Assembly: GCA_030679995.1 (NCBI GenBank)
Contig: JAUXSK010000018.1
Span: 41,828 to 105,827 of the forward strand
Source of the DNA: Candidatus Moraniibacteriota bacterium
Lineage (GTDB): Bacteria; Patescibacteriota; Minisyncoccia; Moranbacterales; UBA2206
Direction of reading: 5' to 3'
Length of the DNA: 64,000 nucleotides
Position numbers and translations under genes: made by a program. The notes beneath the pieces are model-generated. The model saw nothing but the letters and a program-made list of their open reading frames with translations. It did not search any database and was not told where the DNA came from. This document shows positions 7-59,573 of this stretch, in pieces (within the stretch, counting starts at the first letter, position 1; each line of letters begins with the position of its first letter).

Positions 7-1137
7 TTGGAATCATTTGAAATCGACGTTCCTATGGAAAACAGATTGGTCGGCAAGCTGTTTTTCGTGCCCTATGCTGCCAGAGATGACCTACGGAGAA
101 TTTTGAAACAGGCTTTGCTCGAAAACAGGCAAAGACTTGGTAACCTCACGCTGGGTCAATGGATTCAAGAGTTTGAAAAAACCTTCAACATCCACACTCG
201 GACAAAATCAGCTCCGGTTGAATTTGTTTCCCGCCATCCGCAAGCAATCCTACTCAATCCCATCGAAAGACGGAGACTAAAAGAAATCATCCATACTTAT
301 GACTATTTGCTGGTTTCAACCCTGCCAACCACCGAGCCTGAGCTTAGTGAAATGTTAGCCAATATGCCGGACACGGAAACATCCGAAAAACAAGACGGCT
401 CCGCAAGAGCAACCTACGCTCCGGAATCCTACAGAAAAAGCTTCTCTGGAAATTCGACATCCGCAGACACAGCAATCATTCCGCTAGACGAAATTTTGAA
501 ACAATTTCCCGAAATCGGCGAACAAATCATCACTTCCAACCGTATACAAATCCTGAGCTTTCCCGAACCGGCGCGCCCGTCCATCAAAAATTGGCTGGCT
601 GATTACACGTCCATCCTGGGCAACGAACCGCACGATTCCATAGCCCGGGGCAATTATTTGTTCCATGAAAAAAATACGCAGAACCTGAGTTCAACCAACA
701 GGAACAGATTGGCTTACATCCTGAAATCCTTCGATGAAAAAACCCCAATCACGATGGACAAGTCAAGCAAACAAATAATCTTCGACGATACGAACGAAAT
801 CCCGGAACCCAGAAAAAACGATCAGAATTCTCAAAACACTTCGACGCAAAAAACGCCAACCGCCAACTACGCGCCGCAAACCAACAAAATCAGCTTTTCT
901 TCCCCGCAGAAATTATCCTTTGAAAAAATAACACCCCCTGCCAAAACCGCCACCGTTCCGGCCAACCTTCCGACTGGAAACCTCGCCAGACCGGCACAAT
1001 TCGGAAATAACCAGCCCGGCAGGATGACCAACCAGCAACCCTACCGCATCACGCCGTCCGGCAGCCGGCAACAGATTGTCGATACGAAAGCGATGCCAAG
1101 AGTGTTGCCGAAGAATGTGGTAAACCTGCGCGATTAA
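7..1137 (+). CDS. Hypothetical protein with a Pro/Gln/Thr/Asn-rich low-complexity C-terminal half. The ORF opens at the window edge with TTG, so the true start may lie upstream or at the ATG at 34.
   Basis: Long uninterrupted ORF with coding-like composition and no recognisable catalytic motif. Confidence 0.4.
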   Translation: MESFEIDVPMENRLVGKLFFVPYAARDDLRRILKQALLENRQRLGNLTLGQWIQEFEKTFNIHTRTKSAPVEFVSRHPQAILLNPIERRRLKEIIHTYDYLLVSTLPTTEPELSEMLANMPDTETSEKQDGSARATYAPESYRKSFSGNSTSADTAIIPLDEILKQFPEIGEQIITSNRIQILSFPEPARPSIKNWLADYTSILGNEPHDSIARGNYLFHEKNTQNLSSTNRNRLAYILKSFDEKTPITMDKSSKQIIFDDTNEIPEPRKNDQNSQNTSTQKTPTANYAPQTNKISFSSPQKLSFEKITPPAKTATVPANLPTGNLARPAQFGNNQPGRMTNQQPYRITPSGSRQQIVDTKAMPRVLPKNVVNLRD

Positions 1138-1178
1138 ATTCAAAATCTAAAATTACAAATTCCAAATAAATCACAATG
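1138..1178. repeat. Left arm of the AT-rich palindromic intergenic repeat (copy R1). It ends in ...CCAAATAAATCACAATG, and that ATG is the start codon of the four-helix-bundle gene.
   Basis: Direct comparison with the full copies at 2020-2147 and 2835-2974 shows the shared AAATYCARAATYYAAAATTACAARYTCCAAATAAAT..CAATG left arm. Confidence 0.7.
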
Positions 1179-1538
1179 TCCGAAATCCAAAAAACAAAAC
1201 GATACGATTTAGAGGATAGAACGTTAGAGTTTGGAAAGAGAATTTTGAGATTAGCAAAGGCCTTGCCAAAAAACACAATAAATTTCAAGTTAATTGATCA
1301 ATTTGTCCGTTCCGGCACTTCAATGGGAGCAAACTACCGAGAAGCTAATGAAACTGAAACCAAAAAAGATTTTAAATTTAGAATGAGAATATGCAGAAAA
1401 GAAGGTAAAGAGACCATTTATTGGCTATATTTAATAGCCGAAGCTAATCCAGAATTTGAAGAAAGAATAAAACCACTTTTACAAGAAACGACTGAAATCG
1501 TAAAAATATTCGCCGCCATTCTTGTAAAATGTGAATGA
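1176..1538 (+). CDS. Four-helix-bundle protein of the 23S rRNA intervening-sequence protein family, nested between the two arms of repeat copy R1.
   Basis: 120 aa, all-helical and Lys/Glu-rich. The FGKRILRL...IDQFVRSGTSMGANYREA...YWLYLI pattern is typical of the family. Assignment is by recall, without an HMM search. Confidence 0.7.
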   Translation: MSEIQKTKRYDLEDRTLEFGKRILRLAKALPKNTINFKLIDQFVRSGTSMGANYREANETETKKDFKFRMRICRKEGKETIYWLYLIAEANPEFEERIKPLLQETTEIVKIFAAILVKCE

Positions 1539-1602
1539 TTTTGATGATTTTGAATTTAATATTTATTTGGAATTTGTAATTTTGTATTTGTAATTTAAAC
1601 AT
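1539..1602. repeat. Right arm of the palindromic repeat (copy R1), ending in TATG, which supplies the start codon of the downstream gene.
   Basis: ATTTATTTGGAATTTGTAATTTTGTATTTGTAATTTAAACATATG is the inverted complement of the left arm and matches the 3' ends of R2 and R3. Confidence 0.7.
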
Positions 1603-2019
1603 ATGGGTTTATTCAATGTTCCCCAATTCATCGACATCGAAGACAAGATTGTCGGACCGCTGACCGCCAAGCAATTGGGCTGGATGGGGGCGGCCGGAGT
1701 GATCCTTTTGGTGGCCTGGAGCATCCTGGACCTCACGGCATTCATCATCGCCGCTATCCTCACCAGCATCATTTTCGGCAGCCTGGCATTCTACCGTCCC
1801 AACGGACAGCCATTGGTCTATTTCATCTTTTCCGCCATCTCTTTCGCCTTCCGTCCTAAAATATATATCTGGAAAAGGGTGGCTGACAAGAGCGTACTCG
1901 GATTCACTCCCGCCCAAAAGACGAAAGCTGAAAAAAATGCTAAAATAAAGACATTGGCACCCAAGGAAGTTTCGGAACGGAAGATAGAAGATATTTCACA
2001 TTTATTGGACAGTAAATAA
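1603..2019 (+). CDS. PrgI/VirB3-like small two-TM T4SS component.
   Basis: The N-terminal NVPQFIDIEDKIVGPLTAKQL resembles the PrgI-family VP..I..E.K..G.LT.RQ motif, followed by two hydrophobic helices. It is ~138 aa and sits immediately upstream of virB4. Confidence 0.55.
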   Translation: MGLFNVPQFIDIEDKIVGPLTAKQLGWMGAAGVILLVAWSILDLTAFIIAAILTSIIFGSLAFYRPNGQPLVYFIFSAISFAFRPKIYIWKRVADKSVLGFTPAQKTKAEKNAKIKTLAPKEVSERKIEDISHLLDSK

Positions 2020-2147
2020 ATCCAAAAATTAAAATTACAAGTTCCAAATAAATTGCAATGGCCAAAATTCAAAATTGTTTTAAATTTTGAAAGTTGAGAT
2101 TTAGAATTTATTTGATATTTGTAATTTTGAATTTGTGATTTAAGTTT
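2020..2147. repeat. Full copy (R2) of the ~130-bp AT-rich palindromic intergenic element, filling the gap exactly from stop codon to start codon.
   Basis: The inverted arms AAAATTACAAGTTCCAAATAAATTGCAATG and ATTTATTTGATATTTGTAATTTT flank a central AAAATTCAAAATTGTTTTAAATTTTGAA palindrome. A 10-codon mini-ORF begins at the CAATG. Confidence 0.75.
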
Positions 2148-2834
2148 ATGGAATCATTGCACTCGGAAAAATTAGCCACCCAGACCAGCACCTCTGCTTC
2201 CCAGCAGTTTCTTGACGTGGCCGAAATCAAGGAAGGCGTCGTAGTGCTGAAAAACGGCTCTTTTCGGGCTGTCATAGCCGTATCGGCCATCAATTTCGAT
2301 TTGAAATCCACTGACGAACAGGAAGCGATCGTTGGACAATATCAAAACTTCCTCAATTCGCTGGATTTCCCGGTCCAAATCCTCATCAGTTCCCGCAAAC
2401 TCAACGTGGACAAATATATCGGTTTCATCGAAAAAAAGGAAAAACAACAGACCAACGAGCTCCTGAAACTGCAAATTTCAGAATACAAGAATTTTATCCA
2501 CCAGCTGGTTTCCGTTTCCAATATTATGGACAAGAATTTCTATATCGTTGTGCCATTTTCCCCGATTGAAAACCAAGAAAAGAGCTTTTTGAGCAATCTT
2601 TTCAATAGCCTCAATGCCAAAAAGAACATCCTGGAAAAAAGGGAGAATTTTGAAACCTACAAAAACCAGCTCTACCAACGGATCGACCACATTTCCGCCT
2701 CGCTGTCTGGCATCGGATTGCGTATCGCCCCGCTGGACACCCAGGAACTGGTCGAATTGCTCTACCAATCCTACAATCCGAACCTTTTCGCGGAAAGCAA
2801 GCTGGGAGATGTGAGCGCAATGGAACTCAAATAG
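2148..2834 (+). CDS. VirB4 N-terminal-domain-like protein, probably the detached N-terminal part of a Gram-positive-type VirB4.
   Basis: GVVVLKNGSFRAVIAVSAINFDLKSTDEQEAIVGQYQNFLNSLDFPVQILI resembles the N-terminal 'inf.L.s.eEq...f..fL..l.fp.Qi' segment of PrgJ/TraE-type VirB4 proteins. It has no TM segment and no Walker motifs. Confidence 0.45.
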   Translation: MESLHSEKLATQTSTSASQQFLDVAEIKEGVVVLKNGSFRAVIAVSAINFDLKSTDEQEAIVGQYQNFLNSLDFPVQILISSRKLNVDKYIGFIEKKEKQQTNELLKLQISEYKNFIHQLVSVSNIMDKNFYIVVPFSPIENQEKSFLSNLFNSLNAKKNILEKRENFETYKNQLYQRIDHISASLSGIGLRIAPLDTQELVELLYQSYNPNLFAESKLGDVSAMELK

Positions 2835-2974
2835 AAATCCAGAATCCAAAATTACAAGCTCCAAATAAATTACAATGTTCAAAATTAAAAAATTCAAAAC
2901 CGTTTTGAATTTTGAAAATTGTAATTTAAATTTTATTTGATATTTGTGATTTTGAATTTGTGATTTAAAATATT
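2835..2974. repeat. Full copy (R3) of the palindromic intergenic element, lying between the two virB4-like ORFs.
   Basis: Same arms and central palindrome as R2. It ends in TATTATG, which provides the start codon of the 604-aa virB4 ORF. Confidence 0.75.
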
Positions 2975-4789
2975 ATGGATTTATTCAACAAAAAAGGTAA
3001 AACCGAACAGGACCAGGTGATTCTTTCTGAGAAATATTACCAGGAAGGCGTCGCGAAACTGCAAGACCTGATCGCTCCGGCCGCCATAAAAATCCTACCC
3101 CAATCCATCCGGCTGGGGGAAACTTTGGCTAAAACGATTTTTGTCATCTCTTATCCGAGATATCTGCATAGTAATTGGTTTTCACCCATCATCAACATCG
3201 ATATGCCGATCGACATCTCGATGTTCGTACATCCCGTCGAAACTTATGACATCTTGAAAACCCTCAAAAAAAGCGCGACCCAGGTCCAATCGCAACTGCA
3301 CATCGAGCAGGAGAAAGGACTGATCCGCGACCCGACCCTGGAAACGGCCATCCAAGACATCGAGGAATTACGGGACAAACTCCAACAAGGTACGGAAAAA
3401 TTCTTCCGCTTCGGCCTATATATCACGGTTTACGGCCAAGATGAGAAAGATTTGGAAAAAGCCGCGAAAAACATCGAATCGATTTTGGAAGCCCAGCTGG
3501 TCTATGTGAAGCCGGCTATCTTCAAAACCGAACAAGGTTTCAATTCCACTATCCCGCTGGCCAATGATGAATTGAACATCGGAACCAATATGAATTCCGC
3601 CCCGCTTTCCACCACGTTTCCCTTCGTTTCTTCCAGCCTCTCCAATGACGAAGGCATCCTCTATGGCATCAACCGCCATAATAACAGCTTGATCTTATTC
3701 GACCGTTTCAAAATGGAAAACGGCAATATGGTGGTCTTCGCCAAATCCGGCGCGGGTAAAAGTTACACCGTCAAACTGGAAGTGCTGCGATCCCTAATGG
3801 TCGGCACCGATGTCATCATTATCGACCCGGAAAACGAATATAAACATTTGTGCGACACGGTAGGCGGATCTTTCGTCAAAATTTCTTTGAATTCCACCAA
3901 CCATCTCAACCCTTTCGATTTGCCGAAAATCGCCGAAGATGAGGATCCGGAAGACATTTTGCGCAACAACATCGCCAGCCTTCTGGGACTCCTGCATCTG
4001 ATGTTGGGCAACATCACTCCGGAAGAGGATTCCATCCTTGACCGCGCGGTGCACGAAACCTATGCCATCCGCGACATCACCGGACAAACCGATTTTAACA
4101 CCCTGGCCAAAGAAGCCTATCCGACTATGTCCGATCTTTACCAGGTTTTGCGCAATATGGAAGGAGCCGAAGATTTGGCCATCCGTTTGGAAAAATACAC
4201 GGAAGGGATTTTTGCCGGCTTTCTCAATAACACCACCAACATCAAAGTGGACAACGCGCTGGTAGTTTTCAATATCCGCGATATGGAAGAAGAATTGCGC
4301 CCCCTCGCTATGTATATCGTCTTGCAATTCATTTGGAACGAGATGCGCACCAATCTTAAAAAAAGGATCGTTCTGGTGGATGAGGCTTGGGTGATGATGA
4401 AATATGACGATGCCGCCTCATTCCTGTTCGGAATTGCGAAACGCTGCCGAAAATATTATACTGGACTCACGACGATCACCCAGGATGTGAACGATTTCCT
4501 TTCTTCGCGCTATGGCAAACCGATCGTGACCAACTCATCCATCCAGCTCCTGCTCAAGCAATCTCCTGCGGCTGTCGATATGATCGCGGAAACGTTCTAT
4601 TTGACCGACCAGGAAAAATTTCTGCTGCTTGAAAGCAATGTCGGAGAAGGGATTTTTTTCGCCGGCACCAAGCATGTGGCCATCAAAGTCATCGCTTCCT
4701 ACAGCGAAGACCAGATCATAACGACCGACCCGGCCCAAATGTTGGAAATCGAACAGGCTAAAAGGGAGTTTGATGATGAGGAAGAATAA
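2975..4789 (+). CDS. virB4: VirB4/TraC/PrgJ-family conjugative-transfer (T4SS) ATPase.
   Basis: Walker A MVVFAKSGAGKSYTVK (nt 3749-3763), Walker B RIVLVDEAWVMM, the ITQDVNDF motif and an N-proximal ISYPRYLHSNWFSPII segment all match VirB4-family signatures. Confidence 0.8.
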   Translation: MDLFNKKGKTEQDQVILSEKYYQEGVAKLQDLIAPAAIKILPQSIRLGETLAKTIFVISYPRYLHSNWFSPIINIDMPIDISMFVHPVETYDILKTLKKSATQVQSQLHIEQEKGLIRDPTLETAIQDIEELRDKLQQGTEKFFRFGLYITVYGQDEKDLEKAAKNIESILEAQLVYVKPAIFKTEQGFNSTIPLANDELNIGTNMNSAPLSTTFPFVSSSLSNDEGILYGINRHNNSLILFDRFKMENGNMVVFAKSGAGKSYTVKLEVLRSLMVGTDVIIIDPENEYKHLCDTVGGSFVKISLNSTNHLNPFDLPKIAEDEDPEDILRNNIASLLGLLHLMLGNITPEEDSILDRAVHETYAIRDITGQTDFNTLAKEAYPTMSDLYQVLRNMEGAEDLAIRLEKYTEGIFAGFLNNTTNIKVDNALVVFNIRDMEEELRPLAMYIVLQFIWNEMRTNLKKRIVLVDEAWVMMKYDDAASFLFGIAKRCRKYYTGLTTITQDVNDFLSSRYGKPIVTNSSIQLLLKQSPAAVDMIAETFYLTDQEKFLLLESNVGEGIFFAGTKHVAIKVIASYSEDQIITTDPAQMLEIEQAKREFDDEEE

Positions 4790-4943
4790 GTTTTTATGAT
4801 TTCAAGTTTCAATCTGCCAGCTGGTAGACCAAATTATTCCAAATCAAATCCAAAGATCAAATTAAAAAATAACTTTTGATATATAGGCTTTGAGCTTGAT
4901 TTGGAATAATTTGAGCCTTGAATAATTTGGATTTTAAAAAATT

Positions 4944-5471
4944 ATGTCCGACGAACAACAAAATCATGCGAATAACCTCAAAATGGCTCGCATCGGTTCT
5001 CTGAAAAATTCAGCCCAGAACATTAGAAAAAACGTCAAAGCCGCGGTTAATGTCGTTTCGCTTACGGCCTACCTCGAACCCTTTACGGACTGGCTGTTCG
5101 GCATCGCCCTTATCCTGGCCATCATCAAAGATATTTTTGATTTAGTCAACAACGCCCTTATTGCCGCTTTCGGCATCGGGATACCCCTGATCGTGGTTTT
5201 TACCGCCATCGTCTCACTCGCCATCGGATTCATAATGCTACTGACAGGCTCTTCCGGCAAAAGGAAAACCGCCAAGAAAATCGCCCAGGGCCTGCTCAAA
5301 CGATTTCTCCTGCTGGTTGGCGCCTCAGCAATCGAAGCGGTTCCCGCAATCAGCTTGTTGCCACTCGAATCACTCGTAGTCATCATCATATTTTGGCTGA
5401 CACTGGTTGAAAGGAAAAAAAACGCGGAAGCGCAAAAAGAACAAGCGGCAGCGATGGCCGCAGCCGCTTAA
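4944..5471 (+). CDS. Small multi-TM membrane protein, possibly a VirB6-like or accessory T4SS membrane component.
   Basis: Three to four hydrophobic helices, a basic N-terminus and an Ala-rich C-terminus. It follows virB4 on the same strand. Confidence 0.45.
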   Translation: MSDEQQNHANNLKMARIGSLKNSAQNIRKNVKAAVNVVSLTAYLEPFTDWLFGIALILAIIKDIFDLVNNALIAAFGIGIPLIVVFTAIVSLAIGFIMLLTGSSGKRKTAKKIAQGLLKRFLLLVGASAIEAVPAISLLPLESLVVIIIFWLTLVERKKNAEAQKEQAAAMAAAA

Positions 5472-5483
5472 AACAAAGTTTTT

Positions 5484-6143
5484 ATGGACACAAAACAAAA
5501 ATCCAGCCCCCTATCCCATTGGAGAACGGAATTGATCAGCTCCGCGATTGTTTTGTTGTGCTTGTTTTTAGCCGTTTATTTCCCAGCCCAAGGAACATTG
5601 CAACTTTTCAGTAACACACTATTCTTTCTCTTTTTATTGCCGGTCTTGTATATAAAAATTATTTTAAAGCAAAATTTGACTGATTTTGGCTTTAATACGC
5701 TAAATATATCTGCTGGTTTATTGTGGTCGCTTGCGATGTTAGCCTCTTCTTTCCTGATTATTTTTTTCTTAATGCATTTTTATAATTTTGAACAAAAATA
5801 TTTTCTTCCAACTTATCTAGCGCAAAATTTCTGGGTCTTTCTGTTCTATGAGCTGGTTCTGGCAAATTTCTTATTTTTTATACAAGGATTTTTCTTCAGG
5901 GGATTTGTTCTTTTTTCATTCGCGAAAAAATTGAATTTCTTCGCCCCCCTTATCCAATTTTTGATTTTCACATTGTTTCTCGCGGCTACAAATTCTATCA
6001 ATTGGAAGGCAGCTCCTTCCATAATACTATCCCTGACTGGCGGCATCGTGGCTTACAAAAGCAAATCATTCATCTATCCATATTTGACCAGTTTATTGTT
6101 TATGATTATCCTAGATGCCTATATAATTTATCTGTTCAAATAA
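5484..6143 (+). CDS. Phe-rich polytopic membrane protein, with at best a degenerate CPBP/Abi-like fold.
   Basis: About six TM helices. FIQGFFFRGF weakly recalls CPBP motif 1, but motifs 2 and 3 (the His residues) are absent. Confidence 0.4.
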   Translation: MDTKQKSSPLSHWRTELISSAIVLLCLFLAVYFPAQGTLQLFSNTLFFLFLLPVLYIKIILKQNLTDFGFNTLNISAGLLWSLAMLASSFLIIFFLMHFYNFEQKYFLPTYLAQNFWVFLFYELVLANFLFFIQGFFFRGFVLFSFAKKLNFFAPLIQFLIFTLFLAATNSINWKAAPSIILSLTGGIVAYKSKSFIYPYLTSLLFMIILDAYIIYLFK

Positions 6144-31200: not shown

Positions 31201-31287
31201 GTTTTTAAGTTTTTAAGTTTTTAATTTTTTAAATGATGTTCGGAGAACATCATTGCTGAAATTAAAAATCAAAAATTCGTTTAAAAA
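31201..31287. repeat. AT-rich intergenic element with (GTTTTTAA)x3 direct repeats and a palindrome.
   Basis: AAGTTTTTAAGTTTTTAAGTTTTTAATTTTTTAAATGATGTTCGGAGAACATCATT...AAAAATTAAAAATT. Confidence 0.5.
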
Positions 31288-37106: not shown

Positions 37107-38195
37107 TCAGATTAATTTGTTAGCGTTTGAATATTTTATGCCCAGGTGGTTGTAGGCGTGCTCGGTCACCATGCGGCCGCGCGGAGTCCTGGTCATAAAG
37201 CCGATTTGCAAGAGATAGGGTTCGTAGACATCCTCGATCGTCTTTATTTCTTCGCTGGTTGCCGCGGCGATCGTGCTCAGGCCGACCGGTCCGCCGTTGA
37301 ATTTTTCGATAATGGTGCGCAAGATGTGGCGGTCGGCCGGTTCCAACCCGATCGGGTCGACGTCGATCATTTCCAGGGCTTCCTGCGCGATGGCGCTGTC
37401 CACGAATGGGTGGTTTTTGATCTGTGAAAAGTCGCGTACGCGTTTCAAAAGCCGGTTGGCGACGCGCGGGGTTTGGCGGGCGCAACTGGCGATTTTGGCT
37501 AGTCCGGTGTCGTGGATATCCACGCCTAGGATCCGGCTGGATCTTTTGATGATATCCTTCACTTCCTCGTTTCCATAGAATTCCAACCGGTAGGTAGCGC
37601 CGAAACGGTTACGCAACGGATTGGTGAGTGATCCAAGTTTGGTCGTGGCGCCGATAAGGGTGAATTTAGGCAGATCCAACTGGATGGTGCGGGCCGAGGG
37701 GCCTTTGCCGATGATGATATCCAATTTGAAATCTTCCATCGCCGGATAGAGGATTTCTTCGATGGATTTATTGAGCCGGTGGATTTCATCGATAAATAGG
37801 ATATCGCCATCTTGCAAATTAGTCAGGATCGAACCGAAATCGCCGACGCGCTCGATGGCCGGGCCGGAAGTGGTCTTAATGTTGACGCCCATTTCTTTGG
37901 CGATGATGTTGGCCAGAGTCGTTTTGCCTAGTCCAGCCGGGCCGTATAGCAGGATGTGTTCGATAGGCTCTTTACGTTTTTTGGCGGCGCGAAGCAGGAA
38001 ATCCAGATTTTTTTTGACTTTCTCCTGGCCGATATATTCGGAAAAACTCTGGGGACGCAAGGTGTTATCCAGATTATTGTCTTCAACGGTTGCTTTCGGC
38101 TGGGTAGCGGAGGCCAGATCATTGAATTGTTCGGATGAATCGACTAACACAAGTAGTTTTAAATTTTCAATTTTAAATTTAAAATGAAATCCCAA
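37107..38195 (-). CDS. ruvB: Holliday junction helicase RuvB. Its N-terminal ~25 codons are encoded by AT-rich repeat sequence, so the true start may be further downstream.
   Basis: Walker [15 protein letters not shown], Walker [11 protein letters not shown] and sensor motifs. Confidence 0.9.
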
Positions 38196-38285
38196 ATGTT
38201 TAAATTTTTAAACATTCAGCATTTAAAATTGATTTAAAATTTCAAATTTATAAATTTAAAATTATAGGCTTTAGCCTCATTGTAG
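38150..38285. repeat. AT-rich repeat/palindrome element related to the intergenic repeat family.
   Basis: TTTTAAATTTTCAATTTTAAATTTAAAATGAAATCCCAAATGTTTAAATTTTTAAACAT... containing the perfect palindrome ATGTTTAAATTTTTAAACAT. Confidence 0.5.
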
Positions 38286-38291
38286 CATTGC

Positions 38292-38320
38292 TTGACAAAA
38301 AATAAAAGGTGTGCTAAGAT
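38292..38320 (+). promoter_or_regulatory. Near-consensus sigma70-type promoter driving the orphan plus-strand transcript.
   Basis: TTGACA (38292-38297), a 17-nt spacer, then TGcTAAGAT extended -10 (38312-38320). Confidence 0.55.
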
Positions 38321-38326
38321 GCCTAG

Positions 38327-38558
38327 TCATATGATTTTGGCTGAAAAACGCCTTTCGTATGGCTAGCAGTAAGCTGTAGGCAATTGGTGATTTCTATCTT
38401 TTGTCATCAATTTTGGGAACTTTTTATCAAGATATGGGCGGATTGGTGCAAGCTGGGCCGTGCCTCGATACTGTTCCTTCCCCGAGGGCCTAGCTCTTGG
38501 GACTTGCCTGCAGATTACTGATTGATAGAGAAAAACTCGGTTCATACCGGGTTTTTTG
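38327..38558 (+). ncRNA. Candidate ~230-nt small RNA of unknown identity, with its own promoter and intrinsic terminator and no plus-strand ORF.
   Basis: Bounded by the promoter above and a terminator ACTCGGTTCATACCGGGTTTTTTG (38534-38557). It is GC-richer than its surroundings and contains GGGCGGATTGGTGCAAGCTGGGCCGTGCCTCG...CCCCGAGGGCCTAGCTC pairing potential. It lacks the 5' GGGG / 3' CCA tmRNA signatures and the RNase P P4 motifs. Confidence 0.3.
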
Positions 38559-38577
38559 TTTGGATAAAAAAGAAAAG

Positions 38578-38612
38578 GCGGGAGCTCCAGTGTGATGGAA
38601 TTCCCGCCCGGG
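38578..38612 (-). terminator. Rho-independent terminator of the GGDEF gene.
   Basis: The minus strand reads GGGCGGGAATTCCATCACACTGGAGCTCCCGCC followed by TTTTCTTTTTT. Confidence 0.55.
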
Positions 38613-38618
38613 CAAAAG

Positions 38619-39794
38619 TTATTTCTTATGGCAAGGCCGCAACAATACCCTTATCTCATAATCAAGAGTGAGAACTCTGTTTCTGAGAAAGGAAGCGCAT
38701 TCGTCGATTTCTGAGATTTCTGATATTTCAACTAGAAAATCATCATGTGATGCGGTTATGTCGCAAGTCTGTAATAGGCCATATTTTTTAATTATCAGCC
38801 GGTACAGTTCGCTTGAAACATCGGTTCGCAGGCGGTTTATTCGCCTTGCTTCATGTAAACGGATGGCGGATTCCTGGTCCGTCGTTCCGCGTGTTATCAG
38901 CAAGGCCTGCAAATTATTCGCGGGACAGGCTGATTCCCAGAGTTTTTCCTTGAGGATTATTTTCCTGTGGGTGACTAAGTCACCGGAAATATCCTCCACC
39001 ATTCCCATCAGGGTGTCTCCCAAGGCTTTTTTCGAAAAAGCCTTGTTTTTGTCGCACGTTTGCAAGAATGAAACAAGGATATCCCAAAAAATGCATTCCC
39101 CAGCCGTAACGGACGGGGTGAAATGGAACTTTCCTGATGAGCGTTCCGCTTTTTCTAGCAGGCACTGGCCATATTCGCCAAGTCGATTATTCGTTTCCGG
39201 ATTATGGAAGTCCAAATCAGGAAAGGAAATCTTCGAGACTTCGGAAATAACCAGGTCTCTTAAGACGAGATACATCGGACAGTAGGTCGGTTCATCAATC
39301 GCGCAAGGAATTATTTCATCAACGCTGCCGGTGCTTCTTCTGACCAGCACATCGAATTCATCTCCACCTGCCCGGTCGATTTCCAGGATCAGCGAATGCT
39401 TTTCGCAAAAGTCCCGGATTGTCTGGTTATGGAGAGCTCCGGCAACCAGATCCAGCAGGGCATCACCTAATCGATGGCTGCCGACATCGTTGACCGTTTT
39501 CAGTCCATCCAGATCGAAACGGATCTTAGCGACCCGTTTCAGTCGGGTTTTGATTTCGGCTATCGGCTGGCCGCTAAAAAGAGTTAGGATAAAAATATTG
39601 CGAATCTCGTTTTTTATCCAAGCTCCGCCCTCGTGGAAGCCATGCTTGGCTGCCAACTTCTCGTAATTTGGGGGAGAACAAGTCTCCTTATCGTCATTTG
39701 GTGTCGCCACCCTACTTATCAATTCTTGTAATTCGCTTTCCATAGTCATACGTCGATTCTCCTGTCGAATTTTAAGATTGATGCTTAAGTCCAC
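38619..39794 (-). CDS. GGDEF-domain diguanylate cyclase (catalytic motif intact, no I-site) with a C-terminal extension of unknown function.
   Basis: FDLDGLKTVNDVGSHRLGDALL...RAGGDEFDVLV follows the canonical D.D..K..ND..GH..GD..L...R.GGDEF order. GGDEF lies at nt 39354-39368. Confidence 0.7.
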   Translation of the reverse strand: MDLSINLKIRQENRRMTMESELQELISRVATPNDDKETCSPPNYEKLAAKHGFHEGGAWIKNEIRNIFILTLFSGQPIAEIKTRLKRVAKIRFDLDGLKTVNDVGSHRLGDALLDLVAGALHNQTIRDFCEKHSLILEIDRAGGDEFDVLVRRSTGSVDEIIPCAIDEPTYCPMYLVLRDLVISEVSKISFPDLDFHNPETNNRLGEYGQCLLEKAERSSGKFHFTPSVTAGECIFWDILVSFLQTCDKNKAFSKKALGDTLMGMVEDISGDLVTHRKIILKEKLWESACPANNLQALLITRGTTDQESAIRLHEARRINRLRTDVSSELYRLIIKKYGLLQTCDITASHDDFLVEISEISEIDECASFLRNRVLTLDYEIRVLLRPCHKK

Positions 39795-43075: not shown

Positions 43076-44356
43076 TCAATGGCTGATTTCTTTTATTTTC
43101 TTAGCGATCGATTCTCCAGCCTCAGCTATGTTGGCCATAGTTAGGTGTATCTCCAATGTGTCGCGCTTGAGCGTGCCGTTGAAAAACTGATTGATTCTTT
43201 TTAGCAATTCTTGGTCGGATGATTTCAAATCAGCTACGGTCGAAAGGGAAGTATCATTATAGAGAGCCATAAAAATTTTACCATCACTGTAGTTTTCCTG
43301 CAATTTCTCCAAAATCAGCGCGATATCGGTTTGGTTGGAACGGCTTTGCACGAAATCTTCCACACTGATGATTGTCCAAACCAATTTAGTCTGTTCATCC
43401 AGATTGAGATTTGACATGGCGCGCCCCCAAAGTTTCAGGATATGCAAAGGCTGGGTTTTGTACAGCCAGCGGATGATAGTCTGCTGGTCGGCTTTTTTGT
43501 CCATCAGGGCGGCGGCGGCCAAGAGGGATCGCGGAGTGGTGTTTTTCTTCTGGAAACTTTCCGTGGCGCTGATGATACCGGTCAGAAGACAGTCGGCGAT
43601 AGCCTTGTCGATCAGGTTCACATCCATATCATTGAAGGCGGCGCTTAGGATTTCGCTGCAAGATGAAGCGGTGGTATCGACCAGGTTGATTTGGCCGAAA
43701 TTGTCATTGTCGCTGCGGTGGTCGATATTGACGATCGGGACTTCGAAAAACAGATCCGGATTATTCTCATATATCTTGCCGAGCCGTTCCAAGTCCGGGC
43801 TGTCCAAAACAACGATCAGGTCATATTTGAATTTGGCCAGGATGAAAGAGAAATCACGCGGATTGAGCGCGCCTTTCTCAGGCGTCAGATAAATATTCAA
43901 TTTATCGGCTGTTTTTTCCGTGCGGATATCCCGGATCTTATTGTAGGCCGTGTCGAATGACAGTACGAAGTCGCGGGCGCCGGAAATTTCCGTGAGGATC
44001 CCCTCCGGCTTAGGCAGGAAATCATATTTGGCGGAGAGGTGGTTGGAAAAGGCGATCGTAGCCCGGACGCCTTTTTTTTGCAGAAAAAAATAGAGCGCCC
44101 AAGCGCTGCCGACCGCATCTCCGCTGGGATTTTCCGGAATCAAAACCAGTACATCTTGGGATTTGTCTATGAATTGCTTGAATTGTTCCTGGGGTGACAG
44201 TGTCATAAGTTGATAGTTATTTTTAAGCAGTATTACAAGATAACAGGATAAAAAGCGCGTGTCAAATAAAGCCCTCTTTTCTTTTTGGCGGATTACCGCT
44301 AACATATGTATGTTATGGAAAAAGAATTTATCACTGGAAATTTCAAAGAAACGCAA
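43076..44356 (-). CDS. nrnA: DHH/DHHA1-family phosphoesterase (NrnA-like nanoRNase / pAp phosphatase).
   Basis: DHH-family layout with VNIDHRSDNDNFG (a DHR variant of the DHH motif) and a C-terminal DHHA1-like GGGH region. Confidence 0.6.
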   Translation of the reverse strand: MRFFEISSDKFFFHNIHMLAVIRQKEKRALFDTRFLSCYLVILLKNNYQLMTLSPQEQFKQFIDKSQDVLVLIPENPSGDAVGSAWALYFFLQKKGVRATIAFSNHLSAKYDFLPKPEGILTEISGARDFVLSFDTAYNKIRDIRTEKTADKLNIYLTPEKGALNPRDFSFILAKFKYDLIVVLDSPDLERLGKIYENNPDLFFEVPIVNIDHRSDNDNFGQINLVDTTASSCSEILSAAFNDMDVNLIDKAIADCLLTGIISATESFQKKNTTPRSLLAAAALMDKKADQQTIIRWLYKTQPLHILKLWGRAMSNLNLDEQTKLVWTIISVEDFVQSRSNQTDIALILEKLQENYSDGKIFMALYNDTSLSTVADLKSSDQELLKRINQFFNGTLKRDTLEIHLTMANIAEAGESIAKKIKEISH

Positions 44357-44854
44357 AAATTAGGCAAGTCCCTGGCTTTAGAGATTGGAAACGAGCTCCA
44401 AGGTCCAGCCTTGTCTTCAATAGCGCGATCTCAAAGTCCGATTCTGGAAGGCGCCTTCGTGTTTTGTCTGGAAGGCGATTTGGGCGCCGGAAAAACCACG
44501 TTCACGCAGGGGGTATTGAAAGGATTGGGAGCTGAGGGGCCATACACGAGCCCGACCTTTCTCATAATGAAAGAATATAATTTGCAAGATACAAAATACA
44601 AGAAACAAGAAACAAAAAAATTCAAAATTCAAAATTCAAAATTCAAAATTCGGAACATATATCATATTGACGCGTATCGGGTTGGAGCTGAAGATGTTTT
44701 GAGTCTAGGCTGGGAAGAGATGATCGCCGATCCGAAAAACGTCGTAATCGTGGAATGGCCGGAAAAAATCGCACGGATATTACCGGAAAATTCAATCAGG
44801 ATAAAATTTGAGTGGCTGGATGAGAATCAGAGGAAAATAACCTTTGGAAAATAA
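44306..44854 (+). CDS. tsaE: tRNA threonylcarbamoyladenosine biosynthesis ATPase TsaE (YjeE), carrying an in-frame ~20-aa Lys-rich insertion derived from a repeat element.
   Basis: Walker A LEGDLGAGKTTFTQG, then SPTFLIMKEY and IYHIDAYRV. The insertion NLQDTKYKKQETKKFKIQNSKFKIRN lies between the conserved Y and H. The start may be at 44315. Confidence 0.75.
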   Translation: MYVMEKEFITGNFKETQKLGKSLALEIGNELQGPALSSIARSQSPILEGAFVFCLEGDLGAGKTTFTQGVLKGLGAEGPYTSPTFLIMKEYNLQDTKYKKQETKKFKIQNSKFKIRNIYHIDAYRVGAEDVLSLGWEEMIADPKNVVIVEWPEKIARILPENSIRIKFEWLDENQRKITFGK

Positions 44855-58238: not shown

Positions 58239-59573
58239 ATGAAAAGATTGGTTCCGCAAAAATTGAAAAATATTTATCATCTATTCCAAGCCATCTTGGC
58301 GAATATTCGGTATGGCTTTCCGACTAGGAAGATGAAAACCATCGGCATCACCGGCACGGACGGCAAAACTACGACCTGTCAGATGGTAGCTAAGATTTTG
58401 GAAGAGGCTGGTAAGAAAGTGGCGATGGCTTCCACCATAAATTTCCGCATCAACGGCGAGGAAGAAAAAAACCTTTCCCACTTCACGACTTTGTCGGCTT
58501 TCGCGGTGCAGAAATTCGCGAGGCGGGCGGTGGACGCGGGCTGTGAATATCTGGTTTTGGAAACTTCTTCGCATTCACTCGATCAATACCGGGTGTGGGG
58601 AGTGGATTATAAAACGGCGGTCATTACTAACGTGACGCGCGAGCATTTGGACTATCACCAGACGATGGAAAAATACCGCCAAGCCAAGGCGAGGCTTTTT
58701 AAAAAAGTCCAAGTAGCAATCGTGAATCTGGATATGGAAAAACCGGAGGAATATTTCGACCGTGGCGCGGGTAACATTTTGGGATATGGCTTGAAAATCC
58801 AAAATCCAAAATTACAAATTTCAAATAAATGCAAAATTCAAAATCAAAAATTCAAAACCGTCATTGCTCAAAATATTGAATTAGGAATTGATAAATCAGC
58901 TTTTTCAGTCGGTGATCAAAAGTTTATTTTAAATTTGATCGGGGATTTCAATATTGAAAACGCGCTGGCGGCTATCAGCGTCGGGGTTTCGGAAAATATC
59001 GATCTGGCGACTTGCGCCAGGGCCTTGGAGAAAATCACCGGCGTGCCGGGACGGATGGAATATGTGCCGAATGGCAGGGGATTGAATATTCTGGTGGATT
59101 TCGCTTTGACGCCGATCGCTCTGGAAAAACTATACTCGGTGCTTTTGAAAATAAAAAAACCGGAAGCGCGGATCATTGCGGTTTTTGGATCGTGCGGGGA
59201 ACGCGATCGCGGCAAGCGGCCGATTATGGGCGCAGTCGTTTCCAAATATGCTGATTTCGTGATTGTGACCGATGACGAGCCTTATCATGAAAATCCAGTC
59301 CAGATAATAAATGAAATATTTTATGGCGTTATCGGACAGAGGATGGCAGACGAGATCCCGAATCAAGATCCAAACAAAAAAATAGAAGGTGAAAATTGCT
59401 GGAGAATAACGGGCAGAAGGGAAGCGATCAGAAAGGCTTTGGAAATAGCCAAACCCGAGGATATTATCGCCGTCACCGGCATGGGAGCGGAAGAATCGAT
59501 GATAGTGGGGGATGAAAAAATCCCGTGGAACGACCGGCAGGTGATTTTGGAGGAGTTAAAAAAGATAAAATAA
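58239..59573 (+). CDS. murE: Mur ligase family protein (MurE-like UDP-MurNAc-tripeptide ligase) with an in-frame ~24-aa repeat-derived insertion.
   Basis: GITGTDGKTTT P-loop and the VLETSSHSL...VITNVTREHLDYH central domain. The start is called at MKRLVPQKL rather than the ORF-track start at 58032, which overlaps the upstream gene. The insertion LKIQNPKLQISNKCKIQNQKFKTV lies at nt ~58792-58863. Confidence 0.8.
   Translation: MKRLVPQKLKNIYHLFQAILANIRYGFPTRKMKTIGITGTDGKTTTCQMVAKILEEAGKKVAMASTINFRINGEEEKNLSHFTTLSAFAVQKFARRAVDAGCEYLVLETSSHSLDQYRVWGVDYKTAVITNVTREHLDYHQTMEKYRQAKARLFKKVQVAIVNLDMEKPEEYFDRGAGNILGYGLKIQNPKLQISNKCKIQNQKFKTVIAQNIELGIDKSAFSVGDQKFILNLIGDFNIENALAAISVGVSENIDLATCARALEKITGVPGRMEYVPNGRGLNILVDFALTPIALEKLYSVLLKIKKPEARIIAVFGSCGERDRGKRPIMGAVVSKYADFVIVTDDEPYHENPVQIINEIFYGVIGQRMADEIPNQDPNKKIEGENCWRITGRREAIRKALEIAKPEDIIAVTGMGAEESMIVGDEKIPWNDRQVILEELKKIK

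What the first reader, a model, noticed from the sequence alone, without database searches (positions are those of the whole stretch)
1138..2974. A ~130-bp palindromic MITE-like repeat family precisely fills three consecutive intergenic gaps in the T4SS-like locus
Three copies share terminal inverted arms (AAAATTACAAnnTCCAAATAAAT...CAATG on the left, ATTTATTTGrwATTTGTrATTTTGwATTTGTrATTTAA..TATG on the right) around a central palindrome. They are R1 (1138-1178 plus 1539-1602), R2 (2020-2147) and R3 (2835-2974). Each starts immediately after the upstream stop codon and ends in the ATG of the downstream gene. The element therefore supplies the translation start, and no Shine-Dalgarno sequence is evident. 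This looks like a mobile or recombinogenic element acting as a portable start cassette, or as a terminator-plus-promoter hairpin module.
Basis: seen in the sequence. Interest (0 to 1): 0.75.

Follow-up and report, generated by a model that had tools for sequence, protein, structure and literature searches.

The report
IVS-like hairpin elements between operon genes
Three gaps between genes of a secretion-pilus operon in a Patescibacteria (CPR) genome are filled by copies of a widespread inserted hairpin element, built like the "intervening sequences" known from ribosomal RNA genes, and it does not supply the genes' start codons.

Summary
The repeat is real. R1 (1138-1602), R2 (2020-2147) and R3 (2835-2974) share arms and fold into long imperfect hairpins.

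That gene is under strong purifying selection (dN/dS 0.04-0.14). R1 therefore has the anatomy of a 23S-rRNA IVS, but it sits in an mRNA operon. R2 and R3 look like gene-less derivatives of it.

The family is dispersed across Patescibacteria, with 72 full-length copies in the loci fetched.

In 80 orthologous operons the same junctions are either empty or occupied. Empty ones read TAA-N(1-4)-ATG. Occupied ones carry hairpins of many unrelated sequence families, some enclosing an IVP or a GxxExxY nuclease gene, always in sense. These are insertions, not native leaders.

The ATG belongs to the host gene. Lack of a Shine-Dalgarno site is genome-wide (4 of 54 genes have one). No promoter or terminator signal was found.

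The arms are heptad arrays (AAATNNN) with no covariation between them. Retained copies are far more conserved than neighbouring synonymous sites. How the element moves, and any RNase III processing, are inferred only.

The parts
1138..1602 (+). R1: full-length element (465 nt), two inverted arms around a sense ORF, with IVS-like anatomy
   Evidence: Inverted repeat 1121-1171 / 1561-1611 is 80% complementary. The fold closes a stem of more than 24 bp, -99.9 kcal/mol, z -3.2.
1138..1175 (+). R1 left arm: five A-rich heptads (AAATNNN) running up to the ATG of the internal ORF
   Evidence: Heptad frame.
1176..1538 (+). Gene for a 120-aa four-helix-bundle protein (23S rRNA intervening-sequence protein, related to Avd)
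   Evidence: PF05635 E 1.1e-17. TIGR02436 E 1.8e-23. PDB 2RLD E 4e-17. dN/dS 0.04-0.14 against homologues.
1539..1602 (+). R1 right arm (T/G-rich heptads). The conserved part ends at about 1598, followed by ACAT and the ATG of prgI
2020..2147 (+). R2: gene-less copy (128 nt), an imperfect hairpin of about 60 bp that keeps the remnant CAATG and the first ~17 nt of the IVP gene
   Evidence: -36.2 kcal/mol, z -5.4. Heptad z 5.5.
2835..2974 (+). R3: gene-less copy (140 nt)
   Evidence: -33.5 kcal/mol, z -5.3. It is 137/140 identical to the orthologous copy in L124, while dS of the adjacent gene is 0.276.
4790..4943 (+). Hairpin element of another sequence family filling the VirB4-to-pilin gap, with a small GC-rich palindrome nested at 4806-4821
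   Evidence: Arms 4830-4855 / 4888-4913 are 88% complementary. MFE -41, z -5.9. The gap is empty (21-22 nt) in L120 and L121 and holds a different family in L124 and L126.
58795..58861 (+). One-armed family-A copy translated in frame inside murE (peptide KIQNPKLQISNKCKIQNQKFKT)
   Evidence: It does not form a hairpin. The insert is present in the closest MurE homologues and absent or shorter in P0126, P0132, P0135 and P0143.
44589..44651 (+). In-frame tract of the same kind of A-rich heptads (AAAATTC x5) inside a TsaE-like gene
31201..31287 (-). Another AT-rich hairpin filling a gap between two co-directional genes
   Evidence: Arms 31211-31241 / 31245-31275. z -4.3.
38157..38254 (-). AT-rich palindrome (48-nt arms) just upstream of the gene that starts near 38195
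1603..2019 (+). Host gene: PrgI-family protein
   Evidence: PF12666 E 2.7e-11.
2148..2834 (+). Host gene: stand-alone TraC-like N-terminal domain protein (228 aa), not a fragment made by R3
   Evidence: More than 100 homologues of 226-236 aa carry PF26593.
2975..4789 (+). Host gene: VirB4/TraG-type P-loop ATPase
   Evidence: PF19044 E 2e-29, plus PF03135.
4944..5471 (+). Host gene: T4SS pilin-like protein
   Evidence: PF18895 E 3e-4, below the curated cut-off.

Best explanation
R1-R3 are copies of a dispersed palindromic insertion element of Patescibacteria. Its full-length form is built like a 23S-rRNA intervening sequence (IVS).

Anatomy. Each arm is about five A-rich heptads (AAATNNN), and the other arm is their complement. 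In R1 the arms enclose a sense-oriented, selectively maintained gene for a four-helix-bundle IVS protein, which is related to Avd. R2 and R3 are gene-less, MITE-like derivatives made by internal deletion.

Insertion site. The copies were inserted into the 1-4-nt spacer between the stop and start codons of tightly packed genes of a T4SS-like pilus operon. That is why they appear to 'precisely fill' the gaps.

Expression. They have no promoter or terminator of their own and are read through as part of the operon mRNA.

Inferred, not shown. The hairpin forms in the transcript and, as in rRNA IVSs, is a substrate for RNase III or a similar enzyme. That would separate the cistrons and leave the U-rich right arm as an A/U-rich leader, in a genome that does not use Shine-Dalgarno sites. 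The insertion enzyme is unknown.
For: Repeat and hairpins:
-.

IVP gene in R1 and its conservation:
-.

The same arms-plus-IVP layout recurs elsewhere:
- It is found in L064, L033, L063, L073, L079 and L126.

The family is dispersed:
- nhmmer found 103 sites, 72 of them full length, in MAGs of Moran-, Falkow-, Magasanik-, Buchanan-, Nomura-, Levy-, Peri- and Saccharibacteria.
- Nine viral pattern hits are chance matches only.

Empty versus occupied orthologous junctions:
- L135 and L137 read TAA-A-ATG or TAA-T-ATG where L138 has 133 and 142 nt.
- Gap 4 is 21-22 nt in L120 and L121 but 154 nt in the window.
- Gap lengths are bimodal and 40-56% of junctions are occupied.

Turnover:
- Unrelated arm families fill the same gap in relatives.

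Element-borne genes:
- Every gap of 430-560 nt (11 of 11) holds a sense ORF, either IVP (TIGR02436) or GxxExxY (TIGR04256).
- All roughly 18 independent ORF-bearing contexts seen are co-oriented with their neighbours.

Deletion derivatives:
- R2 and R3 keep the start of the ORF.
- L151 gap 1 keeps only the ORF's 3' end.

Recent duplication and horizontal spread:
- An identical IVP occurs in at least two genomic contexts.
- IVP is 88% identical between this genome and a Falkowbacteria MAG, whereas MurE is already at or below 79% for most homologues within Moranbacteria.

IVS definition:
- A stem of terminal inverted repeats, an S23p ORF in sense in the loop, RNase III excision, and heptamer repeats before the ORF (PMC4990558).
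Against: - No transposase, and no target-site duplication could be defined. The termini read (T/A)AAAT...ATTT(A/T) in AT-rich flanks.
- There is no direct evidence for any RNA-level role. RNAalifold finds no consensus structure. The arms show no covariation, with 82.2% paired against 83.7% in shuffles. Sense and antisense strands fold equally well, 36 against 32, p 0.45.
- Retained gene-less copies are 3 to 25 times more conserved than neighbouring synonymous sites. A purely selfish, decaying MITE would not predict this.
- The source genome beyond the 64-kb window was not available, so the genome-wide copy number is unknown.
Confidence: 0.7

Rival explanations
1. The hairpins have been recruited by the host as intercistronic modules. 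They would uncouple, stabilise or process segments of the pilus-operon mRNA, as REP or Correia elements do, and would be kept by selection. This is not exclusive of an origin by insertion.
For: - R3 differs from its orthologue at 3 of 140 positions (K 0.022) against dS 0.276. L157 and L158 gap 2 differ at 1 of 128 against dS 0.199.
- 40-56% of junctions g1-g4 are occupied across 75 non-identical operons, while the next junctions downstream stay short.
- Copies in one genome differ by 11-20%, so homogenisation alone does not explain the conservation.
Against: - Many orthologous operons work with 1-4-nt junctions.
- Neighbouring gaps are swapped wholesale between the same close relatives.
- There is no covariation and no sense-strand folding advantage.
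- One pair evolves at the neutral rate: L147 and L148 gap 3, K 0.064 equal to dS.
Confidence: 0.3
2. One reading: the element is a portable start cassette that provides the ATG, or a terminator-plus-promoter hairpin module.
For: - The gaps run from stop codon to ATG.
- No Shine-Dalgarno site lies upstream.
- One promoter-like match, TTGTGA-16-TAAAAT, lies in R3.
Against: - The ATG and N-termini are identical in orthologues without the element.
- The conserved repeat ends 4-9 nt before the ATG, and the intervening bases vary.
- Lack of a Shine-Dalgarno site is genome-wide, 4 of 54.
- The promoter-like match is not conserved in R1 or R2, and its -10 hexamer ends 3 nt before the ATG.
- No terminator-like site was found, the stems are A-U rich and there is no U-tract.
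Confidence: 0.04
3. The sequences are native, vertically conserved leaders or spacers of this operon.
For: R3 is retained at the same gap in L124, and R1 and R2 in L126.
Against: - Empty junctions of 1-4 nt occur in relatives with 86-89% nucleotide identity between the empty and occupied loci.
- Unrelated families occupy the same gaps.
- The same family occurs at unrelated loci in many phylum-level lineages.
Confidence: 0.02
4. The palindromes arise on the spot, by slippage of heptad simple repeats and template switching in AT-rich spacers, not by insertion of a pre-formed element.
For: - Strong 7-nt periodicity in many unrelated families, best lag in 28 of 81 gaps.
- One-armed heptad tracts lie inside murE and tsaE.
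- No target-site duplication was found.
Against: - A 1-nt spacer cannot seed a 130-nt palindrome.
- The core CCAAATAAAT-N-ACAATG and the loop are conserved across distant lineages.
- The arms travel with a conserved gene.
- Near-identical copies lie in adjacent gaps, as in L158 g1 and g2.
Confidence: 0.05

Closest known systems
23S rRNA intervening sequences (IVS) of Leptospira, Coxiella, Brucella and Xanthomonas that carry the S23p/IVP ORF
   Same: The size matches: 428-444 nt in Coxiella, 465 nt here. Both have terminal inverted repeats that close a long stem, a gene of the same family (PF05635) in sense orientation in the loop, no obvious ribosome-binding site, and heptamer repeats just before the ORF (PMC4990558).
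   Different: This element sits between protein-coding genes of an mRNA operon, not in helix 9, 25 or 45 of 23S rRNA. The ORF is under strong purifying selection, whereas in Coxiella it is decaying. Gene-less copies and a second cargo gene (GxxExxY) exist. RNase III excision is untested here.
Bacterial MITEs such as Correia/NEMIS (Neisseria), ERIC, RUP and BOX
   Same: Inverted-repeat elements of 100-160 bp, multicopy, intergenic, co-transcribed with neighbouring genes, and derived from a longer partner that shares the ends. From my own knowledge, Correia elements are cut by RNase III in mRNA.
   Different: The longer partner carries no recognisable transposase. No target-site duplication was found. 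The arms are degenerate heptad arrays rather than true inverted repeats at the variable positions.
REP/BIME and REPIN elements with RAYT transposases
   Same: Lineage-specific palindromes occupy orthologous intergenic sites inside operons and turn over rapidly between relatives. Nested, composite arrangements occur.
   Different: REPs are 20-40 bp, G+C-rich, and carry a GTAG or CGTC head (PMC3733652, listed). These elements are 80-230 bp and A+T-rich. No RAYT gene lies in the window.
Rickettsia palindromic elements (RPE)
   Same: Repeats of similar size (100-150 bp) that can sit in frame inside conserved genes and be translated. Compare murE 58795-58861 and tsaE 44589-44651. The RPE properties are from my own knowledge.
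   Different: There is no sequence relationship. Here most copies lie between genes, and the coding-region copies are one-armed.
Avd, the accessory protein of diversity-generating retroelements
   Same: The cargo protein belongs to the same four-helix-bundle superfamily. One homologue (L171) also matches NF033474. PDB 2RLD is a five-chain entry. Avd is a positively charged pentamer that binds nucleic acid.
   Different: No reverse transcriptase or template/variable repeat lies near R1. The RT next to P0353 in L207 looks like one more neighbouring gene rather than a partner.

Membership tests
23S rRNA intervening sequence (IVS) with S23p ORF | Terminal complementary sequences that form a long closing stem | tested here: met
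   R1 arms 1121-1171 / 1561-1611 are 80% complementary, and the MFE fold has a stem of more than 24 bp.
23S rRNA intervening sequence (IVS) with S23p ORF | ORF of the S23p/IVP family (PF05635) in the loop, on the transcribed strand | tested here: met
   ORF 1176-1538, PF05635 E 1e-17, TIGR02436 E 2e-23, on the same strand as the operon.
23S rRNA intervening sequence (IVS) with S23p ORF | Located inside a 23S rRNA gene (helix 9, 25 or 45) | tested here: not met
   No rRNA in the window. The element lies between protein-coding genes. No rRNA was found in 16 loci that carry the family.
23S rRNA intervening sequence (IVS) with S23p ORF | Excised from the transcript by RNase III | not testable with these tools
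   Needs end mapping or an enzyme assay. No RNase III signature lies in the window.
MITE | Short (under about 300 bp), non-coding, with terminal inverted repeats | tested here: met
   R2 is 128 nt and R3 is 140 nt, with arms of 57-60 nt that are 74-75% complementary.
MITE | Many dispersed copies, with presence/absence at orthologous sites | tested here: met
   Four copies in the window. Several copies per MAG, for example CAVURJ01, JBAYHH01 and CAZYSZ01. Empty sites were found. The copy number in the source genome is unknown.
MITE | Target-site duplication | tested here: inconclusive
   The flanks of 46 copies are AT-rich with no consistent duplication.
MITE | A longer partner with the same ends that encodes a transposase | tested here: not met
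   The longer partner (R1 and its relatives) encodes IVP. Other families encode a GxxExxY PD-(D/E)XK protein. Neither is a known transposase.
REP / REPIN | G+C-rich palindrome of 20-40 bp with a GTAG or CGTC head | tested here: not met
   The elements are 128-140 nt with 19-20% G+C.
REP / REPIN | A RAYT (Y1 transposase) gene in the same genome | not tested
   Only 64 kb of the genome was available.
Intrinsic terminator / promoter module | G+C-rich stem followed by a U-tract, and conserved -35/-10 hexamers | tested here: not met
   No terminator-like site lies in the elements. Promoter-like hits number 14 against 8.7 +/- 2.7 and are not shared by the copies.
Structured RNA family (Rfam) | Match to a curated covariance model, or covarying base pairs | tested here: not met
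   No hit at gathering score. Only sub-threshold miRNA-hairpin models appear at E up to 1. There is no covariation.
Integron gene cassette (attC) | Promoterless ORF plus an imperfect palindrome, with an integrase and attI nearby, and cassettes that vary between genomes | tested here: not met
   The genes between the hairpins are syntenic in all 80 operons, with or without hairpins. No integrase was sought beyond the Pfam scans.

The most novel reading that the evidence does not exclude
IVS elements may be a distinct, so far unclassified class of mobile hairpin cassettes.
- They would have no conventional transposase.
- Their cargo protein would recognise the five-heptad arms in a sequence-specific way and mediate spread or maintenance, possibly through an RNA intermediate. 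The cargo is either the pentameric Avd-like IVP or a small GxxExxY PD-(D/E)XK nuclease. An RNA intermediate would explain why the gene is always in sense.
- The preferred targets would be stop/start junctions, existing hairpins and rRNA helices.
- Gene-less copies would be served in trans and kept under selection.

This would give the 23S-rRNA IVSs, whose origin has been open for 30 years, a natural home.
Probability: 0.25. Interest if true: 0.85.

Novelty: new variant of a known kind. Interest (0 to 1): 0.62.

Why it matters
- Origin of IVSs. It links two things usually treated separately: the enigmatic intervening sequences of 23S rRNA, and the very numerous orphan "four helix bundle" and "GxxExxY" genes of Patescibacteria, Bacteroidota and Cyanobacteria. 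It suggests the rRNA IVS is one landing site of a broader family of hairpin cassettes. The paper searches I ran found no description of such cassettes in operons.
- Genome packing. It shows how ultra-compact CPR operons with 1-4-nt stop/start junctions are repeatedly invaded and remodelled.
- Annotation. The elements generate spurious ORFs, break assemblies at repeats, and insert peptides into essential enzymes such as MurE and TsaE.
- A testable puzzle. Gene-less AT-rich hairpins are better conserved than neighbouring synonymous sites, yet show no base-pair covariation.

Tried and rejected
- Does R3 split a VirB4 gene? No. The 228-aa TraC-like protein is a stand-alone gene of 226-236 aa in more than 100 homologues.
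- Promoter and terminator scan of 900-5600: nothing significant.
- Rfam at gathering score and at E up to 1: nothing meaningful. There are no tRNAs in the window.
- RNAalifold on 46 copies gave no consensus structure. Counting pairs on a structure I supplied showed no covariation.
- Sense versus antisense folding and G-U counts, as a test for selection on the RNA strand: no asymmetry.
- Target-site duplication and terminus logo: inconclusive.
- Exact-protein look-ups for the window's IVP and VirB4 were not on record, so the source genome could not be retrieved.
- Phage collection by blastn: no match. The viral-contig pattern scan gave 9 chance hits and no full element.
- PADLOC defence models for IVP and GxxExxY: no credible hit.
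- RNase III signature in the window: none.
- rRNA context in 16 loci that carry the family: none, only tRNAs.
- Literature searches for IVP or GxxExxY cassettes, or for palindromic repeats in Patescibacteria, found no description.
- Concerted evolution as the cause of conservation looks unlikely. Copies within one genome differ more (11-20%) than orthologous copies do between genomes (2%).
Full report
OBSERVATION

Stop codons lie at 1135-1137, 2017-2019 and 2832-2834. ATGs lie at 1603, 2148 and 2975.

The repeat finder joins the three left ends (58 nt, 81-84% identity) and the three right ends (80 nt, 66-89%). It also pairs left with right arms as inverted repeats of 51-60 nt that are 74-80% complementary. 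Alignments give 84-85% mean column identity.

The left-arm motif occurs 6 times in the window and the right-arm motif 3 times. Both have 0.00 expected in shuffles.

As RNA, R2 and R3 fold into imperfect hairpins of about 60 bp (-36.2 and -33.5 kcal/mol, z -5.4 and -5.3). R1 closes a stem of more than 24 bp around its interior.

The interior of R1 (1176-1538) is a 120-aa gene. It matches the family called 23S rRNA intervening-sequence protein or four-helix-bundle protein:
- PF05635, E 1e-17.
- TIGR02436, E 2e-23.
- PDB 2RLD, E 4e-17, a five-chain entry.

The family is related to Avd of diversity-generating retroelements.

R1 is therefore a 465-nt unit with inverted arms closing a stem and this gene in sense in the loop. 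That is the anatomy published for the Coxiella and Leptospira IVS: 428-444 nt, a 28-bp stem, the S23p ORF in the loop, heptamer repeats before the ORF, and excision by RNase III (PMC4990558). The difference is that R1 sits in an mRNA operon.

R2 and R3 keep the CAATG and the first ~17 nt of the gene, and the region just after its stop codon. They look like internal-deletion derivatives.

Two more related features lie in the window. A fourth, one-armed copy lies in frame in murE at 58795-58861. The next gap, 4790-4943, holds a hairpin of another family.

THE FAMILY ELSEWHERE

A profile built from R2 and R3 finds 103 sites, 72 of them full length. They fall in Moran-, Falkow-, Magasanik-, Buchanan-, Nomura-, Levy-, Peri- and Saccharibacteria, often with several copies per MAG. 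The same pattern in 2.9 million viral contigs gave 9 hits, none a full element. This serves as a chance baseline.

In L064, L033, L063, L073, L079 and L126 the same arms again enclose an IVP gene, with the ATG directly after the left arm.

IVP evolves under strong purifying selection, with dN/dS 0.04-0.14. It is 88% identical to a copy in a Falkowbacteria MAG. MurE, by contrast, is already at or below 79% for most homologues within Moranbacteria. That points to horizontal spread.

An identical IVP protein (P0353) sits in at least two different genomic contexts.

INSERTIONS, NOT NATIVE LEADERS

I fetched 80 orthologous operons (upstream gene, prgI, traC-like N-domain gene, virB4, pilin) at 38-98% protein identity.

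Junction lengths are bimodal:
- Empty junctions are -13 to about 30 nt.
- Occupied junctions are 80-230 nt and fold as strong hairpins.
- A third group of 430-560 nt has hairpin arms plus a small gene.

Pairs of relatives with 86-89% nucleotide identity in the adjacent gene show the insertion directly. L135 and L137 read TAA-A-ATG, TAA-TTTT-ATG and TAA-T-ATG where L138 carries 133- and 142-nt palindromes. L120 and L121 have 21-22 nt where the window, L124 and L126 have 135-154 nt.

The ATG and the N-terminal codons are the same with or without an element, so the start codon belongs to the host gene.

This explains why the elements 'precisely fill' the gaps. The only tolerated target between these genes is a spacer of 1-4 nt.

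Across 75 non-identical operons, 40-56% of junctions g1-g4 are occupied.

MANY FAMILIES, TWO CARGO GENES

The occupants belong to many sequence families with no detectable similarity to one another:
- AAATTACAA...TCCAAATAAAT, which I call family A.
- TTTTAATTTTGTAATTTTTAA.
- AGAACCACTGATTA.
- GTCATTGCGAG or GTCATTCCCGC.
- TACGAAT heptads.
- TTTACTAAATACGAAAT.
- Others.

One genome tends to reuse one family in adjacent gaps. The window has family A three times, L172 has one family three times, and L158 has one family four times. Close relatives carry different families in the same gap.

All 11 long gaps hold a sense ORF, which is either IVP or a GxxExxY PD-(D/E)XK protein (TIGR04256/PF13366). 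Counting the loci from the genome scan and the protein look-ups, about 18 independent ORF-bearing contexts are all co-oriented with their neighbours.

L158 mirrors the window. Its gene-bearing copy is in g4 and gene-less copies of the same family are in g1-g3. L151 g1 keeps only the last ~40 nt of a GxxExxY gene between its arms. This supports the idea that the short forms derive from the long ones by internal deletion.

NATURE OF THE ARMS

Each arm of family A is five heptads (AAATNNN, or NNNATTT in the complement), followed by TACAATG.

On 46 copies, pairing (82.2%) is no better than when partners are shuffled among copies (83.7%). Compensatory changes are fewer than in the shuffles.

The hairpin therefore comes from the conserved heptad frame, and the variable triplets are often mismatched. 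RNAalifold finds no consensus structure.

Across 68 strong hairpins in the operon set, sense and antisense strands fold equally well (36 against 32, p 0.45; G-U pairs 206 against 252). Nothing here shows selection on the RNA helix as such.

A 7-nt period is the best lag in 28 of 81 occupied gaps of unrelated families, against 4 of 60 coding controls. Coxiella's IVS also has heptamer repeats before its ORF.

Five heptads per arm and a pentameric cargo protein make an intriguing coincidence. I flag it as speculation only.

AN UNEXPECTED CONSTRAINT

Where an element is retained at the same junction in two relatives, it is much more conserved than neighbouring synonymous sites:
- R3 against L124: 3 of 140 differences, K 0.022, against dS 0.276. 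The flanking 70-nt windows carry 8-9 differences each.
- L157 against L158, gap 2: 1 of 128, against dS 0.199.
- Window against L126, gap 2: K 0.26 against dS 1.29.
- One pair is neutral: L147 and L148, gap 3.

R1, R2 and R3 differ from each other by 11-20%, so within-genome homogenisation is not the cause. In the same pairs of relatives, adjacent gaps have been swapped for other families.

There are two possible readings. Either individual copies are under sequence-level purifying selection, or a conserved master repeatedly re-inserts at the same junction. I could not separate them.

Only 4 of 54 ORFs in the window have a Shine-Dalgarno-like motif. Its absence downstream of the elements is therefore a trait of the organism.

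The promoter/terminator scan finds no terminator-like site in the elements. It finds 14 promoter-like sites against 8.7 +/- 2.7 expected. The one in R3 is not conserved in R1 or R2, and its -10 hexamer ends 3 nt before the ATG.

R3 does not split a gene. The 228-aa TraC-like protein is a stand-alone gene in more than 100 homologues.

MOST LIKELY MECHANISM

Shown:
- The elements are insertions of a dispersed, horizontally spreading palindromic family.
- The long form carries a functional, promoter-less, sense-oriented gene.
- The short forms are derivatives.
- The elements are embedded in an operon with no transcription signals of their own.

Inferred:
- They are read through.
- The hairpin forms in the mRNA and is cut by RNase III, as rRNA IVSs are.
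- Cutting separates formerly coupled cistrons and exposes a U-rich leader, in an organism that initiates translation without Shine-Dalgarno pairing.

Unknown: the insertion mechanism. There is no transposase and no target-site duplication. The only candidates are the cargo proteins themselves, or enzymes encoded elsewhere in the genome.

COMPARISON WITH KNOWN ELEMENTS AND NOVELTY

R1 meets the structural definition of an S23p-type IVS but fails the defining location in 23S rRNA. R2 and R3 behave like MITEs, but their longer partner lacks a transposase. They are not REPs (wrong size, composition and head motif), not terminators, and not any Rfam family. The in-frame copies in murE and tsaE recall Rickettsia palindromic elements.

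The paper searches I ran found no description of IVP or GxxExxY hairpin cassettes between genes, or of palindromic repeat families in Patescibacteria.

I rate it a new variant of a known kind. It is interesting mainly because it may place rRNA IVSs within a broader class of mobile hairpin cassettes, and because of the unexplained conservation of the gene-less copies.

Noticed in passing
window 58795-58861 (murE, ORF read from about 58242 to 59573): A one-armed family-A heptad tract is translated in frame as KIQNPKLQISNKCKIQNQKFKT. The closest MurE homologues share the insert. It is missing or shorter in P0126, P0132, P0135 and P0143.
   Followed up: yes
window 44589-44651 (inside ORF 44306-44854, TsaE-like): A second in-frame tract of A-rich heptads (AAAATTC x5) interrupts a conserved P-loop protein. 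I did not compare it with homologues.
   Followed up: partly
whole window: Only 4 of 54 ORFs of at least 100 aa have a Shine-Dalgarno-like motif within 20 nt upstream. The upstream regions are A/T-rich.
   Followed up: partly
window 4806-4821; L126 g1 and g2; L128, L141, L147 and L178 gaps; L215 against L214: Small G+C-rich palindromes, for example TCTGCCAGCTGGTAGA and CCTGCCTGCCGGCAGGCAGG, sit nested in or beside the large AT-rich hairpins. One is a 27-nt insertion polymorphism between samples. This may be a second class of element that targets hairpins.
   Followed up: no
L204-L213 (contexts of protein P0353): An identical IVP gene with family-A arms occurs between BacA and a peptidase gene. 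It also occurs directly upstream of a 397-aa reverse transcriptase (PF00078), next to a bAvd gene, KilA-N and Bro-N, and a giant fn3 protein. That second context looks like a DGR locus. Some contigs combine the two flanks.
   Followed up: partly
window 38157-38254 and 31201-31287 (- strand): Two further AT-rich palindromes of other families. One lies just upstream of a gene start and the other fills an 87-nt gap between co-directional genes.
   Followed up: partly
window 38255-38618 (- strand): A 423-nt intergenic region folds very strongly (-142 kcal/mol, z -9.3 by mononucleotide shuffles; -125 kcal/mol, z -4.6 on 38150-38640). It has G+C-rich stem-loops and no Rfam match. It could be terminators plus an unknown RNA.
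   Followed up: no
L036 6290-6502: A full-length family-A copy lies 8 nt from a tRNA gene. The element also lands next to non-coding genes.
   Followed up: no
L006, L034, L118, L018, L056, L108, L102, L113, L117: Full or partial family-A copies occur in MAGs labelled Gammaproteobacteria, Bdellovibrionales and Brocadiaceae. This is either mislabelled or contaminated bins, or spread beyond Patescibacteria. One IVP homologue is labelled WOR-3.
   Followed up: no
L121 5061-5448: The GxxExxY gene in gap 1 is split into two ORFs (62 and 76 aa) by a frameshift. The orthologous copy in L120 is intact. Cargo genes do decay in some lineages.
   Followed up: partly
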